Sequence record: DRR723986_8527 | Length of the DNA stretch: 54,825 nt | Reading direction: 5' to 3' (one strand) | Part shown: piece after piece, positions 37,130-49,910 of the stretch | Layout: each line of letters starts with the position of its first letter | How positions within the stretch are numbered: the first letter of the stretch is position 1 | Made by a program: the position numbers and the translations under genes | Notes under the pieces: model-generated | Database searches by the model: none | The model's input: the letters and a program-made list of their open reading frames with translations, nothing else | Told to the model about the DNA's origin: nothing

Positions 37130-37203
37130 GGGGCATTAGCTCAGCTGGCTAGAGCGCTACGCTGGCAGCGTAGAGGTCATCGGTTCGACTCCGATATGCT
37201 CCA
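37130..37203 (+). tRNA. tRNA-Ala(GGC)
   Basis: GGGGCAT/ATGCTCC acceptor stem with G3-U70; anticodon arm CTACG-CTGGCAG-CGTAG; GGTTCGACTCC T arm; CCA not encoded. Confidence 0.97.
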
Positions 37204-46907: not shown

Positions 46908-47516
46908 ATGGCATTTGAATTACCAAAACTAAAATACGCTTATGACGCATTAGAGCCACATATAGATGCTCTTACAATGGAGATTCACCATTCTAAACAT
47001 CATAATGGATATACTACAAAACTTAATGCCGCTATAGAGGGCACAGCATTAGAAGGAAAATCTATTGAAGATATTTTATCAAATTTAGATATGACTAATA
47101 GTGGTGTAAGAAATAATGGTGGTGGATTTTACAATCATTCATTATTCTGGGATGTGATGAATCCTGAAGACAGAGGATATCTTTCAGGTGAATTAAAAGA
47201 TGCTATTGAATCAGAATTTGTATCTAAGGATGCATTTGTTGAAGCTTTTAGTAAAGCAGCAGCAACTCAGTTTGGTTCAGGATGGGCTTGGCTGTGTGTA
47301 CATAAAGGAGGAAAGGTAGAAGTTTGTTCTACACCAAATCAAGACAATCCATTAATGCCAGGCGTAAGTTGTGAAGGCACACCTATTTTAGGATTAGATG
47401 TATGGGAACATGCCTATTATTTAAACTACCAAAATAGAAGACCAGATTATATTGATGCTTTCTTTAAAGTAATTAACTGGAATGAAGTAGAGCGTCGATA
47501 CGCAGAGGCAAAATAA
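46908..47516 (+). CDS. sodA: Superoxide dismutase, Mn-type signature
   Basis: [30 protein letters not shown]. Confidence 0.9.
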
Positions 47517-47539: not shown

Positions 47540-47569
47540 AAATCCAAGTTGAGAGACTTGGATTTTTTT
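47540..47569 (+). terminator. Intrinsic terminator after sod
   Basis: AAATCCAAGT-TGAGAG-ACTTGGATTTTTTT. Confidence 0.85.
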
Positions 47570-47598
47570 ATGGATTAAAACAAACAATTTATAAAATG

Positions 47599-47671
47599 AA
47601 AAAGGATGAACAGACGTTCATCCTTTTTGCCCCAAATCTACCATAAACTTAACCTACTTATGTTATGGTGA
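47599..47671 (-). ncRNA. Candidate small RNA, copy 1
   Basis: Upstream TATATTTG (47674-47681); 43-nt core shared with copy 2; terminator GGATGAAC-GTCT-GTTCATCC-TTTTT. Confidence 0.65.
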
Positions 47672-47711
47672 CTCAAATATAAGTGCACAGATATTTAATA
47701 TTTTAATTTTT

Positions 47712-47742
47712 TGGACAAACGACCTATATATTAGTCTAAGCG
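47712..47742. promoter_or_regulatory. Direct-repeat boxes upstream of sRNA copy 1
   Basis: TGGACAAACG and TAGTCTAAGCG, 20 bp apart, at the same offset as in copy 2. Confidence 0.4.
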
Positions 47743-47831
47743 TGGAACCAACAGTGTTTATTAACCTATGTTAATAGAGATAACAAAAACAAACACAACT
47801 TTTTGAGAAGATAACAGAAAGTATAGGGTAT

Positions 47832-47905
47832 AAAAAAAGGTGAACTAAGTTCACCTTTTTTTGCCCCAAATCTACCATGAACTTAACCTACTTATGTTAT
47901 GGTGA
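47832..47905 (-). ncRNA. Candidate small RNA, copy 2
   Basis: Upstream TACATTGG (47908-47915); core 42/43 identical to copy 1; terminator GGTGAAC-TTA-GTTCACC-TTTTTTT. Confidence 0.65.
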
Positions 47906-47945
47906 TACCAATGTATATTTAATTTGTTAAAGCGAGGGTAAATAA

Positions 47946-47997
47946 TAGACGAAATGCATTTTTATTAGACAAAACGCTTATTTTTTCGGATAAAATG
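47946..47997. promoter_or_regulatory. Three direct-repeat boxes upstream of sRNA copy 2
   Basis: TAGACGAAATG (47946), TAGACAAAACG (47966), CGGATAAAATG (47987). Confidence 0.5.
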
Positions 47998-48011
47998 TGA
48001 GTTTGTTCGAT

Positions 48012-49910
48012 TTAGTAGGCGCGCTCTTTATTGCCTTCAAAGAAATTAATAAAGGCTCTATTAACCACTCTATTACCACCATCTGTTGGGTAATTACCTG
48101 TAAAATACCAATCTCCTAAATTTTTGGGACATGCTTTATGAAGATTAGAAACTGGTTGAAAGATTATTTTTACTTCAGCATTAACATCTTCATCACTAAG
48201 TAATTCAGAAATCTTATCAGAGATTTGTTCATCAGTAAAATTATTGTAAATGTCCTTTACATAGTTTACAACATTTTTATCTTTAAGATTGACTTGTTTT
48301 AAGCATTTATTATAAACTTCCTCAACAATGTGATATTGATTATTATCTTTTAATAATGCCAAGGCTGCTCTAAATGCAATTAAACTCTCAAGATTTGCCA
48401 TGTCAATTCCATAACAGTCTGGATATCTAATTTGAGGAGCAGAAGATACAACGATGATTTTTTTCGGATTTAGTCGATCCATCATTTTAATGATACTCTT
48501 TTTCAATGTAGTTCCTCTTACAATACTATCATCTATAATCACCAAATTGTCCGTTGGCTTTATAACACCATAAGTAACGTCATAAACGTGAGCCACTAAA
48601 TCATCTCTACTGCTATCTTCGGTAATAAAGGTTCTTAACTTTACATCCTTAATGGCGATTTTTTCTATTCGTGGTCGCTCAGCTAATATTTCTTCTACTT
48701 TTTCAGCAGATAGACTTCTTTGTCCTTTTAAAATAGTTTGTGTTTTTTTATGATTGAGGTGTTCTTCTACGGTATCAATCATTCCAAAAAATGAAGTTTC
48801 AGCTGTATTTGGGATATATGAAAAAACGGTATTTTGGGTATCCTCTTCTATTGCTTCTAAAACTTTGGGCATTAATAATCGCCCCAATTCTTTTCGTTCT
48901 TCATAAATTTCTGCATCACTACCTCGAGAAAAATAAATGCGCTCAAAAGAACATGCCTTGCGCTCTAGTGGCTCTAATATTTTTTTAATCTCAGTTACTC
49001 CAGATTTTTTTGTGATAATAGCATGACCTGGATCTAACTCAATAACATCTTCAAAAGCTACATTAAATACAGTTTGAATCACTGGTCTTTCAGATGCTAC
49101 AACAACAACTTCATCATCCTTATAATAATAGGTTGGTCTTATTCCGGCAGGATCCCTTAATACAAATGAGTCGCCATGGCCTAATAAACCTGCCATAGCG
49201 TAGCCACCATCCCAATTTTTTGCAGCACGCTTTAAAATTTTGTGAACTTTTAAGCGCTCAGCAATTAATGGTGAGCACTCAATTTTAGTATAGCCTTCCT
49301 TTTTAAGATCTTTATAAATTTTTGAAACGGCATCATCTAAAAAGTGACCTATCTTTTCCATCACCGTAATAGTATCTGCTTTCTCTTTAGGATGCTGACC
49401 TATTTCAACAAGATTGCTAAAAAGCTCATTAACATTGGTCATATTAAAATTACCTGCAACGATGAGGTTTCTATGCATCCAATTATTTTGTCTTAAAAAT
49501 GGATGAACACTTTCTACACTATTCTTACCAAATGTGCCATAGCGCACATGACCTAATAACAATTCACCAATGTAAGGGATATGTTTTTTTTGTAGCTCTA
49601 CATTATTTTGATATTGAGGGTTGTTGGTAATTTCTAAATTAATGCGCTCATTAATCTGAGAAAAAATATCTTGAATAGGTTGTTGAGCTATAGATCTTAC
49701 TCGACTAATATATCTTTCACCAGGATGAGTATCTAATTTAATGCTTGCAAAACCAGCGCCATCTTGTCCACGGTTGTGCTGTTTTTCCATCATTAAATAC
49801 ATTTTATTTACGCCATAAAAAGCACTACCATATTTTTCTTTATAGTATTTTAATGGTTTTAAAAGTCTTAAGAGTGCTATACCGCACTCATGTTTTAAAG
49901 CATCACTCAT
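48012..49910 (-). CDS. purF: Amidophosphoribosyltransferase
   Basis: HE-CG N-terminal nucleophile, RGQDGAG, GHVRY, DDSIVRGTT, CYGID. Confidence 0.92.
   Translation of the reverse strand: MSDALKHECGIALLRLLKPLKYYKEKYGSAFYGVNKMYLMMEKQHNRGQDGAGFASIKLDTHPGERYISRVRSIAQQPIQDIFSQINERINLEITNNPQYQNNVELQKKHIPYIGELLLGHVRYGTFGKNSVESVHPFLRQNNWMHRNLIVAGNFNMTNVNELFSNLVEIGQHPKEKADTITVMEKIGHFLDDAVSKIYKDLKKEGYTKIECSPLIAERLKVHKILKRAAKNWDGGYAMAGLLGHGDSFVLRDPAGIRPTYYYKDDEVVVVASERPVIQTVFNVAFEDVIELDPGHAIITKKSGVTEIKKILEPLERKACSFERIYFSRGSDAEIYEERKELGRLLMPKVLEAIEEDTQNTVFSYIPNTAETSFFGMIDTVEEHLNHKKTQTILKGQRSLSAEKVEEILAERPRIEKIAIKDVKLRTFITEDSSRDDLVAHVYDVTYGVIKPTDNLVIIDDSIVRGTTLKKSIIKMMDRLNPKKIIVVSSAPQIRYPDCYGIDMANLESLIAFRAALALLKDNNQYHIVEEVYNKCLKQVNLKDKNVVNYVKDIYNNFTDEQISDKISELLSDEDVNAEVKIIFQPVSNLHKACPKNLGDWYFTGNYPTDGGNRVVNRAFINFFEGNKERAY

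What the first reader, a model, noticed from the sequence alone, without database searches (positions are those of the whole stretch)
47599..47915. Tandem pair of ~70-nt candidate sRNA genes between sodA and purF
Seen: two copies 234 bp apart share a 43-nt core with one mismatch while most flanking DNA diverges. On the minus strand each reads: -7 element (TATATTTG or TACATTGG, same offset), then a core able to form an ACCAU/AUGGU hairpin followed by AGAUUUGGGGC, then a terminator. The terminator stems differ by a compensated indel (GGATGAAC/GTTCATCC versus GGTGAAC/GTTCACC) and have different loops. No conserved ORF. Inference: sibling regulatory sRNAs under structural selection. I cannot assign an Rfam family.
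Basis: partly seen in the sequence, partly recalled or inferred. Interest (0 to 1): 0.75.

Follow-up and report, generated by a model that had tools for sequence, protein, structure and literature searches.

The report
Tandem Rfp13-family small RNA genes
These are two neighbouring genes for a ~71-base regulatory RNA already seen as the transcript Rfp13 in a fish pathogen; relatives' genomes show that it matches, letter for letter, the start region of a tiny unstudied protein gene, which gives its unknown function a testable target.

Summary
There are two minus-strand units, 47669-47599 and 47903-47832. Each has a Bacteroidota -7 box, a 5' hairpin, the invariant linker AGAUUUGGGGC and a compensated terminator.

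They are not a new family. They are homologs of Rfp13 of Flavobacterium psychrophilum (Guerin 2021). There the RNA is 73 nt, starts at a mapped sigma-A start site beside sodA, and rises in stationary phase and on iron chelation. No Rfam family matches. A model of the family hit 123 of 151 sampled Flavobacteriaceae genomes, with 1-6 matches each, mostly clustered. Of 73 long loci, 58 lie between sodA and purF. This scan found the same family twice before on other DNA.

New here is a conserved 40-44-codon ORF, found with strong matches in 45 of 151 sampled genomes, all of which also hold the sRNA. It lies about 0.2-0.3 Mb from the sRNA locus. Its 5' UTR and codons 4-9 are antisense to the sRNA, with perfect runs up to 24 nt. 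Its promoter shares the sRNA promoters' phased GYATTTCATCGAT sites.

I read the pair as trans-acting repressors of this ORF's translation, with further unknown targets. The ORF could not be checked in this genome.

The parts
47599..47669 (-). sRNA copy 1 (71 nt): 5' hairpin ACCAU...AUGGU, linker AGAUUUGGGGC, terminator, U-run
   Evidence: The model R1 scores it 96.8 bits, E 6e-22. The 5' end is set by homology to the mapped start site of Rfp13 (A of ACCAT).
47832..47903 (-). sRNA copy 2 (72 nt), same plan, with C instead of U at the bulge position and a different terminator stem and loop
   Evidence: The model R1 scores it 87.7 bits. Two short contigs of an RNA library lie on 47848-47903 and 47857-47903, which is a weak hint for the 5' end.
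47629..47639 (-). Copy 1 linker AGAUUUGGGGC, single-stranded and invariant in the family; proposed seed
   Evidence: These columns are invariant in 150 aligned units, but the collecting 19-mer required them. The stretch is unpaired in the fold. It is complementary to the small-ORF 5' UTR of relatives.
47863..47873 (-). Copy 2 linker seed
   Evidence: As for copy 1.
47599..47628 (-). Copy 1 intrinsic terminator (13-bp stem including A/U pairs, loop GUCU, U-run)
   Evidence: Across the family, 10 of 11 terminator pairs show compensatory changes.
47832..47862 (-). Copy 2 intrinsic terminator (15-nt arms, 1-nt gap in the repeat finder's view)
47674..47681 (-). Copy 1 -7 box TATATTTG (-12 to -5)
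   Evidence: Read. In 194 promoters of the family: T-12 86%, A-11 84%, T-8 92%, T-7 96%, G-5 62%.
47908..47915 (-). Copy 2 -7 box TACATTGG
47945..47957 (-). Copy 2 proximal upstream site GCATTTCGTCTAT (-54 to -42), a candidate transcription-factor half-site
   Evidence: It has 2 mismatches to GCATTTCATCGAT and is one of only 2 such matches in the window. The position is typical of the family.
47965..47977 (-). Copy 2 distal site GCGTTTTGTCTAA (-74 to -62), 20 nt upstream of the proximal one
   Evidence: Read. The family-wide best matches peak at -73/-74 and -53/-54.
47710..47722 (-). Copy 1 proximal upstream site GTCGTTTGTCCAA (-53 to -41), weaker
   Evidence: Read.
47730..47742 (-). Copy 1 distal site CGCTTAGACTAAT (-73 to -61), a poor match
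   Evidence: Read. Assigned by position only.
46908..47516 (+). sodA (Fe/Mn superoxide dismutase), convergent neighbour with its own terminator at 47540-47570
   Evidence: Pfam Sod_Fe_N and Sod_Fe_C. The terminator is seen on the other strand, and its T-run is read.
48012..49910 (-). purF-type amidotransferase, upstream neighbour on the same strand
   Evidence: Pfam GATase_7. It is syntenic in 66 of 73 loci.

Best explanation
The two units are separately transcribed genes for a ~71-72-nt trans-acting small RNA of the Rfp13 family of Flavobacteriaceae. Each has a sigma-A promoter (-7 box TAnnTTTG), preceded by two phased sites at about -54 and -74 for an unidentified regulator, probably an activator. 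The RNA starts at the A of ACCAU. It forms a 5' hairpin with a conserved AUAAGUAGGUUAAG top, then a single-stranded AGAUUUGGGGC linker, and ends in an intrinsic terminator.

SHOWN: the anatomy; membership by sequence, model and synteny; conservation; and, in F. psychrophilum only, the transcript, its start site and its induction.

INFERRED: the RNA acts by base pairing. In the marine genera nearest this window its main partner is the mRNA of a conserved 40-44-aa protein encoded about 0.2-0.3 Mb away. That mRNA's 5' UTR (about -34 to -9) and codons 4-9 (S/T-N-L-P-E) are antisense to sRNA nt ~17-45 and to the loop. Pairing on both sides of the AUG would block translation initiation. The small ORF has the same regulator sites, so RNA and target would be switched on together, with the two or more sRNA genes setting a threshold.

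The sRNA is more widespread than this ORF, so it must have other targets too. My odds: Rfp13-family sRNA genes 0.93; base-pairing regulator 0.8; the small ORF is a true target where present 0.6.
For: Identity: the Rfp13 sequence in the supplements of PMC9723704 (73 nt, THC0290_N_0129) reads CCATTACATAAGTAGGTTAAGTTATGGTAGATTTGGGGCAAAAAAGG..., against the window's ...CCATAACATAAGTAGGTTAAGTTTATGGTAGATTTGGGGCAAAAAGG. The model R1, built from 150 units, scores the window copies 96.8 and 87.7 bits. The next window hit scores 22.5 bits and is terminator only.

Synteny: of 73 loci of at least 3.5 kb, 66 have PurF beside the motif and 58 have both SodA and PurF. Rfp13 also lies just after sodA.

Spread: the exact 19-mer hit at least 120 stretches, nearly all labelled Flavobacteriaceae or Bacteroidota. 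R1 hit 123 of 151 sampled genomes of the family, with matches per genome of 1 (18 genomes), 2 (56), 3 (27), 4 (14), 5 (6) and 6 (2). In 5 of 5 genomes searched, all strong hits lie in one cluster.

Structure: 97.9% of cells are paired against 84.9% in shuffles. Cells with a change on both sides number 242 against 53, and 0 of 500 shuffles reach the observed value. Compensatory changes occur in 10 of 11 terminator pairs and 4 of 8 hairpin pairs.

Expression in F. psychrophilum: start site at 208135, assigned to SigA with probability 0.998, 7237 reads. Microarray log2 rises from 9.4/9.6 in early growth to 16/17.1 in stationary phase. Dipyridyl gives 12.2/11.9 against a control of 9.5/9.7 (log2FC 2.38, adjusted p 0.008).

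Target: an intact small ORF stands in 35 of 37 loci examined. In 34 unique CDS there are 0 in-frame stops, against 148 and 114 in the other forward frames. Codon position 2 varies least. The longest perfect complement of the window's own sRNAs to the ORF's 5' UTR is at least 12 nt in 29 of 35 loci and at least 14 nt in 27 of 35, up to 24 nt. In the first 15 codons it is at least 9 nt in 31 of 35. In 44 control start regions of the window the maximum is 9. Duplex energy averages -43.6 kcal/mol, against -17.5 +/- 3.1 for 700 shuffles and -16.9 +/- 3.4 for the 44 window start regions. Net cofold gain is -27 to -37, against -10 +/- 3. One genome has a 22-nt perfect antisense copy at the ORF.

Co-occurrence: all 45 genomes with a strong full-length ORF match are sRNA-positive.

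Shared promoter module: GYATTTCATCGAT with at most 1 mismatch stands upstream of 29 of 33 ORFs. With at most 3 mismatches it stands in 100 of 194 sRNA promoters, at fixed positions. The background is 46 of 2000 windows.
Against: No transcript, start site or 3' end is shown for this organism. The RNA-library contigs cannot give strand or ends, they sum several organisms, and such libraries can hold DNA.

The small ORF is not in the 54.8-kb window, and no whole genome is held, so its presence here is only inferred from the closest relative (G001; SodA 94.6% identical).

No expression data exist for the ORF. Its strand is inferred from the ORF itself and from the promoter module.

The complementarity could be a relic of common descent, with the sRNA born from an inverted copy, rather than a working interaction.

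The sRNA is found in far more genomes (123 of 151) than the ORF (45 strong matches, 65 at E<=1e-3, of 151). Two Flavobacterium genomes hold no antisense copy. So the ORF cannot explain the family's conservation.

No covariation test was possible: the five genomes with altered seeds showed no such ORF.

The CopraRNA list of Guerin et al. shows no coherent regulon.

The A4 alignment is fitted to the model, and the motif used to collect loci forced the invariance of 19 positions.
Confidence: 0.8

Rival explanations
1. Iron-sparing riboregulator of the RyhB/PrrF kind. Fur releases the two genes under iron lack, and the RNA shuts down mRNAs of dispensable iron proteins. The position beside sodA would be a trace of that role.
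For: The authors' table annotates Rfp13 as 'induced under iron depletion', and dipyridyl gives log2FC 2.38. Tandem siblings recall PrrF1/PrrF2 (recalled, not from a call). The locus is kept beside a Fe/Mn SOD gene in 58 of 73 loci.
Against: Induction by growth phase is far larger (about 7 log2 units) than induction by the chelator. The upstream sites lie at -54 and -74 and do not form the Riemerella Fur box ATTTAGAATTATTCTAAAT; only TCTAAA is shared. No window gene, sodA and purF included, has notable complementarity; the best of 44 start regions is -25.2 kcal/mol, within the shuffle range. The published target prediction lists no iron-protein set.
Confidence: 0.12
2. RNA antitoxin of a split type I toxin-antitoxin pair. 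The 40-44-aa cationic amphipathic peptide is harmful, and the multicopy sRNA keeps its translation off.
For: The system has a small ORF under 60 aa, long antisense complementarity at its start region, and several sRNA gene copies. The definition of type I systems was read in search-listing abstracts only (PMC3919570 and PMC11264685).
Against: The peptide is not hydrophobic: GRAVY is -0.26 to 0.06, and the best 19-aa window is 0.5-1.05. The sRNA genes lie about 0.2-0.3 Mb from the ORF, not beside it (coordinates). There is one ORF per genome, in a fixed chromosomal place, and nothing mobile is nearby. Both partners seem to be co-induced. Toxicity is untested.
Confidence: 0.12
3. The second locus is not a protein gene. 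It would be a non-coding decoy (sponge) RNA that titrates the sRNA, or, read on the other strand, a longer RNA carrying several copies of the sRNA's own seed.
For: The locus holds 2-3 seed-complementary words, with duplicated start regions in some genomes. A further ~135-nt RNA under the same promoter module carries an 11-nt anti-seed word.
Against: The frame stays open in 34 of 34 unique sequences despite 32-88% identity. The other frames are full of stops, and codon position 2 varies least. The promoter module and -7 box point along the ORF strand. A coding mRNA can still act as a sponge, so the two readings overlap.
Confidence: 0.1
4. Protein-binding RNA. The invariant GUAGGUUAAG and GGUAGAUUUGGGGC words would be sites for an RNA-binding protein (for example an RRM protein like RbpB), which the abundant RNA sequesters or delivers.
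For: Primary-sequence conservation is extreme across genera whose SodA is only about 72% identical. In Bacteroides, RbpB binds the 5' part of multicopy FopS sRNAs (PMC11697453, passages).
Against: No protein partner is known, and there are no repeated motifs within one RNA. The conserved words are explained at least as well by the antisense target. This does not exclude a chaperone acting together with base pairing.
Confidence: 0.06
5. No RNA gene at all: the units would be repeated terminators, a REP- or MITE-like element, or a fossil duplication.
For: The terminators are bidirectional in shape, and the plus strand also folds well.
Against: An independent transcript with a mapped start exists in F. 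psychrophilum. Each unit has promoter boxes. There are only 1-6 matches per genome, clustered at a syntenic site. The core is conserved while the flanks diverge.
Confidence: 0.02

Closest known systems
Rfp13 (THC0290_N_0129), and its diverged paralog Rfp15, of Flavobacterium psychrophilum OSU THCO2-90 (Guerin et al. 2021, ISME Commun 1:33, PMC9723704)
   Same: It has the same core sequence, with 2 differences over about 46 nt by eye. Length is similar (73 versus 71-72 nt), and the hairpin-linker-terminator plan is the same. It also has a sigma-A -7 box, starts at ACCAU, and sits just after sodA on the opposite strand. The authors listed homologs in F. johnsoniae, F. columnare, Cellulophaga and Zobellia.
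   Different: Here there are two copies in tandem, whereas one Rfp13 entry stands at that site in F. psychrophilum. The other neighbour here is purF, not tyrS. The paper's main text names Rfp13 once. Its function, targets, regulator sites and family-wide synteny are not described in the parts I read: passages of the main text, section 15, and supplement files 1, 3, 4, 6 and 9. The SI Appendix docx could not be read.
FopS / GibS multicopy sRNAs of Bacteroides thetaiotaomicron (Rfam RF04319; PMC11697453)
   Same: Both are from the same phylum, are about 65-70 nt, and are multicopy with sigma-A-type promoters. FopS has a conserved single-stranded seed and represses translation by pairing next to the start codon of an mRNA that lacks a Shine-Dalgarno sequence (passages). 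That is the mechanism I propose here.
   Different: There is no sequence or model membership: 22.2 bits against a gathering score of 56. FopS copies are dispersed and its seed is at the 5' end. Here the copies are tandem at one syntenic site and the seed lies behind a 5' hairpin. FopS targets are SusC-like transporters; here the predicted target is a 41-aa ORF.
Tandem sibling sRNAs of Proteobacteria (PrrF1/PrrF2, OmrA/OmrB, Qrr1-5); recalled, apart from search-listing abstracts for OmrA/B
   Same: These are near-identical neighbouring genes, each with its own promoter and terminator, an invariant seed and variable terminators, and a dosage or threshold role. PrrF is iron-responsive.
   Different: They belong to an unrelated phylum and have unrelated sequences. 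They depend on Hfq, which Bacteroidota lack (established knowledge, as stated in PMC11697453). No Fur box was found here.
Type I toxin-antitoxin pairs with a separately encoded sRNA (ZorO-OrzO, TisB-IstR-1); abstracts in the search listing only
   Same: Translation of a small ORF is predicted to be blocked by an sRNA with about 20 nt of complementarity in the 5' UTR.
   Different: The peptide is not hydrophobic, the genes are about 0.2-0.3 Mb apart, there is no sign of mobility, and toxicity is unknown.

Membership tests
Rfp13 sRNA family (Flavobacteriaceae) | Sequence and structure match to the family core and plan | tested here: met
   R1 scores the two copies 96.8 and 87.7 bits. The core agrees with the published Rfp13 sequence.
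Rfp13 sRNA family (Flavobacteriaceae) | Position next to sodA, on the opposite strand | tested here: met
   In the window, sodA is 46908-47516 (+) and the sRNAs are on the minus strand. SodA is adjacent in 58 of 73 loci. In F. psychrophilum the sodA 3' region is at 207980-208039 and Rfp13 at 208062-208134.
Rfp13 sRNA family (Flavobacteriaceae) | Own sigma-A promoter (TAnnTTTG at -12 to -5) and start at the A of ACCAU | tested here: inconclusive
   The -7 boxes are present at the right offset. The start site itself is mapped only in F. psychrophilum. For this organism there is only the weak contig hint.
Rfp13 sRNA family (Flavobacteriaceae) | Independent, abundant transcript induced in stationary phase and under iron chelation | not testable with these tools
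   Only Logan contigs of metatranscriptomes were on hand. They show presence in RNA libraries, not level, strand or ends.
Any Rfam family (including FopS RF04319 and Flavo-1) | Score at or above the family's gathering threshold | tested here: not met
   The best scores are 26.1 bits (RmaA, GA 57) and 22.2 bits for FopS (GA 56). Flavo-1 is not listed at E<=10. Only a tRNA passes in the whole window.
RyhB/PrrF-type iron-sparing sRNA | Fur operator over the promoter | tested here: inconclusive
   No palindrome like the Riemerella Fur box is present. The conserved sites lie at -54 and -74 and are direct or half palindromes of GCATTTCATC. The Fur box of this family of bacteria is not defined.
RyhB/PrrF-type iron-sparing sRNA | Targets are mRNAs of iron-using proteins | tested here: not met
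   The published CopraRNA list and the 44 window start regions give no such set. The strongest predicted partner is a 41-aa ORF.
Type I toxin-antitoxin system | Small hydrophobic (membrane) toxin | tested here: not met
   The maximum Kyte-Doolittle 19-aa window is 0.5-1.05, and net charge is +2 to +5.
Type I toxin-antitoxin system | Antisense RNA complementary to the toxin mRNA and encoded at the same locus | tested here: not met
   Complementarity is met. The genes, however, are about 190-315 kb apart in the genomes where both lie on one contig (coordinates).
Type I toxin-antitoxin system | Toxicity of the peptide relieved by the RNA | not testable with these tools
   This needs expression experiments.
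REP / MITE-like dispersed repeat | Many dispersed copies per genome | tested here: not met
   There are 2 copies in the window and 1-6 matches per genome, clustered.

The most novel reading that the evidence does not exclude
In a large clade of marine Flavobacteriaceae, the Rfp13-family sRNAs and a never-studied 40-44-aa protein form a dedicated pair. One unidentified regulator, binding phased GCATTTCATC(GATGAAATGC) sites, switches on both. The sRNA then clamps the mRNA on both sides of its start codon: up to 24 nt in the 5' UTR, plus the codons for S/T-N-L-P-E. The peptide would therefore be made only when mRNA outruns the multicopy sRNA, which makes this a feed-forward threshold switch. It would be the first sRNA-target pair defined in Flavobacteriia, and the conserved N-terminal NLPE of the peptide would be shaped by RNA pairing as much as by protein function. 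A third ~135-nt RNA under the same sites, carrying an 11-nt anti-seed, may belong to the same circuit.
Probability: 0.5. Interest if true: 0.68.

Novelty: new member of a known kind. Interest (0 to 1): 0.5.

Why it matters
Flavobacteriaceae are major degraders of organic matter in sea and soil, and they include fish pathogens. They lack Hfq and ProQ, and almost nothing is known of their RNA regulation. In the papers I could search, the only sRNA of the family with an experimental phenotype is Rfp18.

Rfp13 is one of the most strongly induced and most widely conserved transcripts of the family, found in 123 of 151 sampled genomes. Its function has been left open since 2021. The window's pair is an ordinary member of this family, so the finding itself is not a discovery.

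The comparison made here turns 'function unknown' into a precise, cheap experiment. It names a partner mRNA with 20-nt-scale complementarity at its start codon, a shared promoter module that points to a common regulator, and compensatory-mutation tests that follow directly.

Tried and rejected
1. Own-genome search: no genome is held for this window. Copy number and the small ORF could therefore not be checked in this organism.

2. Sigma-70 promoter scan: 0 sites. This is not informative, because Bacteroidota use -33/-7 boxes.

3. RNAalifold on the MAFFT alignment A1 gave only 3 pairs, because the A-run shifts the register. I replaced it with a hand-given structure and a model-based alignment.

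4. Seed-complement scan: GCCCCAAATCT with up to 1 mismatch in 5 genomes gave 24-53 matches per genome, against 12-18 for the reversed control. This 2-3-fold excess is suggestive, but most sites lie inside unrelated genes. L133 and L139 look like chance matches.

5. Targets inside the window: none of the 44 start regions stands out, sodA and purF included.

6. Covariation between seed and target: five genomes with altered seeds (GGUAAGAUUUGGGG and others) had no matching antisense site or ORF, so no test was possible.

7. Fur-box reading of the upstream sites: not supported.

8. Literature on the site words (TTTCATCGAT and others): 226 papers hold one of them, and none of the 15 listed is relevant. 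A search for 'Rfp13' found 12 papers, and the 10 listed are unrelated uses. Searches for Flavobacterium sRNA, iron and type I systems found no functional study of Rfp13.

9. Pfam and NCBIfam on the small ORF: 0 families. Pfam on genes downstream of other copies of the promoter module found an M15 D-Ala-D-Ala dipeptidase, an Ig-like surface protein and two unknowns, with no common theme.

10. Metatranscriptome contigs. In run X1, contigs of depth 49.9 and 13.6 lie on 47617-47682, and contigs of depth 12.8, 5.65 and 2 lie on 47833-47903. The one contig on purF has depth 3.1. Several of these contigs continue into unlike sequence, so they come from relatives. Depth per contig cannot rank genes. 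Parts without cover mean nothing.

11. Rfam on the small-ORF locus and on the third RNA: nothing near threshold.
Full report
OBSERVATION

The region was read directly. A 58-nt direct repeat, 91% identical and spaced 234 bp, lies at 47624-47681 and 47858-47915. Two perfect inverted repeats lie at 47599-47628 and 47832-47862. The 41-nt core occurs exactly twice in the window, both times on the minus strand, and in none of 100 shuffles.

On the minus strand each unit reads as follows:
- a -7 box (TATATTTG at 47681-47674; TACATTGG at 47915-47908);
- 4 nt of spacer;
- ACCAUAACAUAAGUAGGUUAAGUU(U/C)AUGGU;
- AGAUUUGGGGC;
- an A-run, a GC-containing stem-loop and a U-run.

Each unit folds into hairpin, free linker and terminator, with z-scores of -4.4 and -4.5. 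The plus strand folds equally well, so the strand has to come from other evidence. No ORF is shared. The flanking genes are a Fe/Mn superoxide dismutase (+) and a PurF-type amidotransferase (-).

WHAT IT IS

No Rfam family reaches its threshold. In a permissive scan of the region the best scores are 26 bits (RmaA, threshold 57) and 22 bits (FopS of Bacteroides, threshold 56), and Flavo-1 is not listed. Over the whole window only a tRNA passes.

Nearly all are labelled Flavobacteriaceae or unclassified Bacteroidota (Flavobacterium, Winogradskyella, Aquimarina, Kordia, Gillisia, Salegentibacter and others). One is labelled as a Pseudanabaena MAG.

In these 120 loci plus the window the 16-mer core occurs 205 times. 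By source, 57 hold one copy, 51 two, 8 three, 4 four and 1 six, at spacings of about 180-330 bp. In 198 of 202 units with enough flank, a terminator hairpin follows the motif.

The family is in print. A search of the supplements of Guerin et al. 2021 (PMC9723704) for the linker word found Rfp13 (THC0290_N_0129). Its sequence differs from the window's copies at two places over the first ~46 nt. The same file lists homologs that the authors took from F. johnsoniae, F. columnare, Cellulophaga, Zobellia and others.

Other files of that paper add the following:
- A start site at 208135 with 7237 reads, assigned to sigma-A with probability 0.998. This places +1 on the A of ACCAU.
- Microarray log2 values of 9.4/9.6 in early growth, rising to 16/17.1 in stationary phase.
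- Values of 15-17 on agar and 17.1/14.6 in fresh water.
- Values of 12.2/11.9 with dipyridyl against 9.5/9.7 in its control (log2FC 2.38, adjusted p 0.008).
- The sodA 3' region ends 23 nt from Rfp13 on the other strand.

The main text names Rfp13 once, among RNAs with strong predicted structure that are conserved beyond the species. I found no later work on it. Two earlier reports of this scan, on other genomes, reached the same identification.

FAMILY-WIDE ANATOMY

Synteny. Of the 73 loci of at least 3.5 kb, 66 have a PurF homolog next to the motif, 58 have SodA and PurF, 46 also have the UvrD-like helicase that precedes sodA in the window, and 7 have none of these. The closest locus is from Winogradskyella poriferorum (SodA 94.6% and PurF 93.1% identical), so the window probably comes from that genus or a near one.

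Model. A covariance model (R1: 73 positions, 19 pairs) was built from 150 of the 167 distinct units. It scores the window's copies 96.8 and 87.7 bits, and nothing else in the window scores above 22.5 bits.

Distribution. In five whole genomes all strong hits lie in one cluster each, with 2, 2, 1, 6 and 2 copies. In an even sample of 151 genomes of the family, 123 have at least one hit at E<=1e-5. Matches per genome are 1 (18 genomes), 2 (56), 3 (27), 4 (14), 5 (6) and 6 (2). A few genomes have a second locus. Many of the 28 genomes without a hit are small. A pair is thus the commonest state, and the element is neither dispersed nor mobile.

Structure. On a model-based alignment of 122 hits (101 distinct), 97.9% of cells pair, against 84.9% in shuffles. 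Cells changed on both sides number 242 against 53, and 0 of 500 shuffles reach the observed values. Sliding the partners drops pairing to 33-59%. In the terminator, 10 of 11 pairs show compensatory changes. In the 5' hairpin 4 of 8 do, and its three CCA/UGG pairs never vary. Two caveats apply: the alignment is fitted to the model, and the 19-mer used for collection forces part of the invariance.

Conserved primary sequence. The inner three pairs that single-sequence folding draws in the hairpin top are not supported, because the frequent UAA-to-UUA change breaks them. The top is therefore best seen as a 14-nt conserved loop, AUWAGUAGGUUAAG. Two single-stranded stretches are conserved in primary sequence: this loop and the linker.

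PROMOTER

In 194 upstream regions aligned on the inferred start, the -7 box stands at -12 to -5: T 86%, A 84%, then T 92%, T 96%, T 54% and G 62%. This is where Guerin et al. place TAnnTTTG. A T-rich -33 region follows upstream. Two further conserved blocks stand 20 nt apart, T-49 T-48 .. C-44 and T-69 .. C-64.

These blocks are weak forms of a site that is much clearer elsewhere. It is GYATTTCATCGAT, sometimes the full palindrome GCATTTCATCGATGAAATGC, repeated every 20-21 bp. With at most 3 mismatches it occurs in 100 of 194 sRNA promoters, with the best match starting at -73/-74 in 87 of them and at -53/-54 in 42. The background is 46 of 2000 windows of the same length.

In the window the sites are:
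- copy 2: GCATTTCGTCTAT (47957-47945) and GCGTTTTGTCTAA (47977-47965);
- copy 1: GTCGTTTGTCCAA (47722-47710) and a poor distal site (47742-47730).

Positions upstream of the -33 element suggest an activator. This is an inference, and the protein is unknown. The sites do not resemble the Fur box proposed for Riemerella, ATTTAGAATTATTCTAAAT. In F. psychrophilum the word TTCATCGATTT occurs in the listed promoter windows only at Rfp13.

HOW IT MOST LIKELY WORKS

Four of the 19-mer hits lacked a terminator. They turned out to be one conserved locus, present in the window's closest relative, that carries the sRNA's words on the opposite strand. It lies between a fused oligopeptide-type ABC ATPase gene and, convergently, the genes for 3-oxoacid CoA-transferase.

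Read on the other strand, this locus holds:
- the same GYATTTCATCGAT array, with at most 1 mismatch in 29 of 33 loci;
- a -7-like box, CATATTAG;
- a 5' UTR of about 85-90 nt;
- an ORF of 40-44 codons, intact in 35 of 37 loci examined.

The consensus peptide is M-N-x-A-x-N-L-P-E-x-P-T ... L-T-K-K-x-F-M-L, with N6, L7, K37, K38, M41 and L42 invariant among 33 sequences that are 32-88% identical.

The frame is real. There are no in-frame stops in 34 distinct sequences, against 148 and 114 in the other forward frames and 44-186 in the reverse frames. Codon position 2 varies least: 0.18, against 0.31 and 0.35. Databases hold it only as 'hypothetical protein' or unnamed (78 clusters, no Pfam entry). 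Pfam and NCBIfam give nothing.

The mRNA is antisense to the sRNA on both sides of its AUG. The UTR reads GCCCCAAAUCUACCAUGAAUUUAACUU-AUG, and the reverse complement of the sRNA reads GCCCCAAAUCUACCAUGAACUUAAC. Codons 4-13 read CAAAUCUACCAGAACCUACUUAU, which pairs with the linker GGUAGAUUUG and, across a bulge, with the loop AUAAGUAGGUU.

With the window's own two sRNA sequences, the numbers are:
- Longest perfect run in the UTR: at least 12 nt in 29 of 35 loci and at least 14 nt in 27 of 35, up to 24 nt, starting mostly between -34 and -23.
- Longest perfect run in the first 15 codons: at least 9 nt in 31 of 35 loci, mostly from +13/+14.
- The 44 start regions of the window's own long ORFs: runs of only 5-9 nt.
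- Duplex energies: mean -43.6 kcal/mol (range -53 to -34), against -17.5 +/- 3.1 for 700 shuffles and -16.9 +/- 3.4 for the 44 window start regions.
- Net cofold gain after paying for unfolding: -27 to -37 kcal/mol for three relatives, against -10 +/- 3 for shuffles, whose minimum is -20.7.

In the Pontimicrobium genome a 22-nt word of the sRNA's reverse complement occurs, apart from the sRNA genes themselves, only at this ORF, without a mismatch.

A profile of the peptide found one match per genome in 65 of the 151 sampled genomes. Of these, 45 are strong and full-length, and all 45 are sRNA-positive. Relatedness of the genomes makes this less than 45 independent events. Where both lie on one contig they are about 190-315 kb apart, so the RNA acts in trans.

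I therefore propose that the RNA's free linker nucleates pairing with the UTR. The duplex then spreads into the 3' arm of the hairpin, and the start region is closed to the ribosome. This is the mode shown for FopS sRNAs and susC mRNAs in Bacteroides (PMC11697453, passages). Shared regulator sites would make a feed-forward loop in which several sRNA genes set the threshold.

The limits of this reading are:
- The ORF is not in the window, and the genome is not held.
- Neither RNA has been seen in this organism.
- The complementarity might be a relic of origin by inverted duplication.
- Two Flavobacterium genomes have no such antisense copy, and the five genomes with altered seeds have none either.
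- So the family's wider conservation needs other targets, and no seed-target covariation could be tested.
- The peptide is not hydrophobic (best 19-aa window 0.5-1.05, net charge +2 to +5). This, together with the distance between the genes, speaks against a classical type I toxin-antitoxin pair.

EXPRESSION HINTS FOR THIS DNA

Only contigs of public metatranscriptomes were available. In one seawater run, short contigs lie on both cores. On 47617-47682 the depths are 49.9 and 13.6. On 47833-47903 they are 12.8, 5.65 and 2, and two of these contigs reach exactly to 47903, the inferred start. A 414-nt contig of depth 3.1 runs from 47874 into purF with one differing letter. Several contigs continue into unlike sequence, so they come from relatives. 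Contigs give no strand, ends or level. I count this as a weak hint only.

COMPARISON AND VERDICT

The pair is a member of the Rfp13 family by sequence, model, synteny and promoter plan. It is not a member of FopS or of any other Rfam family. It works, I infer, like FopS-type start-codon blockers, and it is arranged like the tandem sibling sRNAs of Proteobacteria. An iron-sparing role of the RyhB kind rests only on a 5-fold chelator response in another species. It lacks a Fur box and lacks iron-protein targets.

As a finding, this is a new member of a known but uncharacterised kind, and the scan has met it twice before. The added value is a concrete partner and a shared promoter code, both of which can be tested directly.

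Noticed in passing
Not in the window. L141 1361-1660 (minus strand); homologs L163-L192, L032, L039, L111, L199, L200, L212: A conserved, unannotated 40-44-codon ORF (M-N-x-A-x-N-L-P-E ... L-T-K-K-x-F-M-L) lies between an ABC ATPase gene and scoB. Its 5' UTR and first codons are antisense to the sRNA. A strong profile match occurs in 45 of 151 sampled genomes, one per genome.
   Followed up: yes
L210 360-530 (+); homologs in L193-L198, L201-L204, L206, L209, L211: A third conserved transcript of about 135 nt lies under the same promoter module. It starts GUGUACUAAAUAACAUACUUUUUAGUUCAAUGGAUUAAUUAAUUAAUAUUUGC and ends in its own terminator. It carries an 11-nt word (CCCUAAAUCUA or CCCCAAAUCUA) complementary to the sRNA linker. 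Duplex energies are only 1-2.5 sd below shuffles. It has no Rfam match and is not in the F. psychrophilum lists.
   Followed up: partly
L193-L212, about 230-340 in the orientation: Arrays of 3-4 sites, GYATTTCATCGAT or the full palindrome GCATTTCATCGATGAAATGC, stand every 20-21 bp upstream of several unrelated genes (an M15 D-Ala-D-Ala dipeptidase, an Ig-like surface protein, two unknown lipoproteins). This looks like the regulon of one unidentified transcription factor.
   Followed up: partly
window 47874-48287: One 414-nt contig of a seawater RNA library, with one differing letter, bridges the 3' end of purF and the 5' part of sRNA copy 2. This is either read-through from purF or DNA in the library.
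   Followed up: no
L085 272-346: A typical family member sits in a contig of a MAG labelled Pseudanabaena (cyanobacterium). The contig is probably mis-binned or a contaminant.
   Followed up: no
L017 2665-2733; L235, L238 and L240 (genome G136, contig C13): These are degenerate or diverged copies: one unit has lost its terminator, and a second cluster of three low-scoring units (47-50 bits) has altered seeds. They are comparable to Rfp15 of F. psychrophilum.
   Followed up: partly
window 34375 (+): This is the only other window match (2 mismatches) to GCATTTCATCGAT. Its context was not examined.
   Followed up: no
window 37130-37203 (+): A tRNA gene, the only Rfam match at gathering score in the window.
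   Followed up: no
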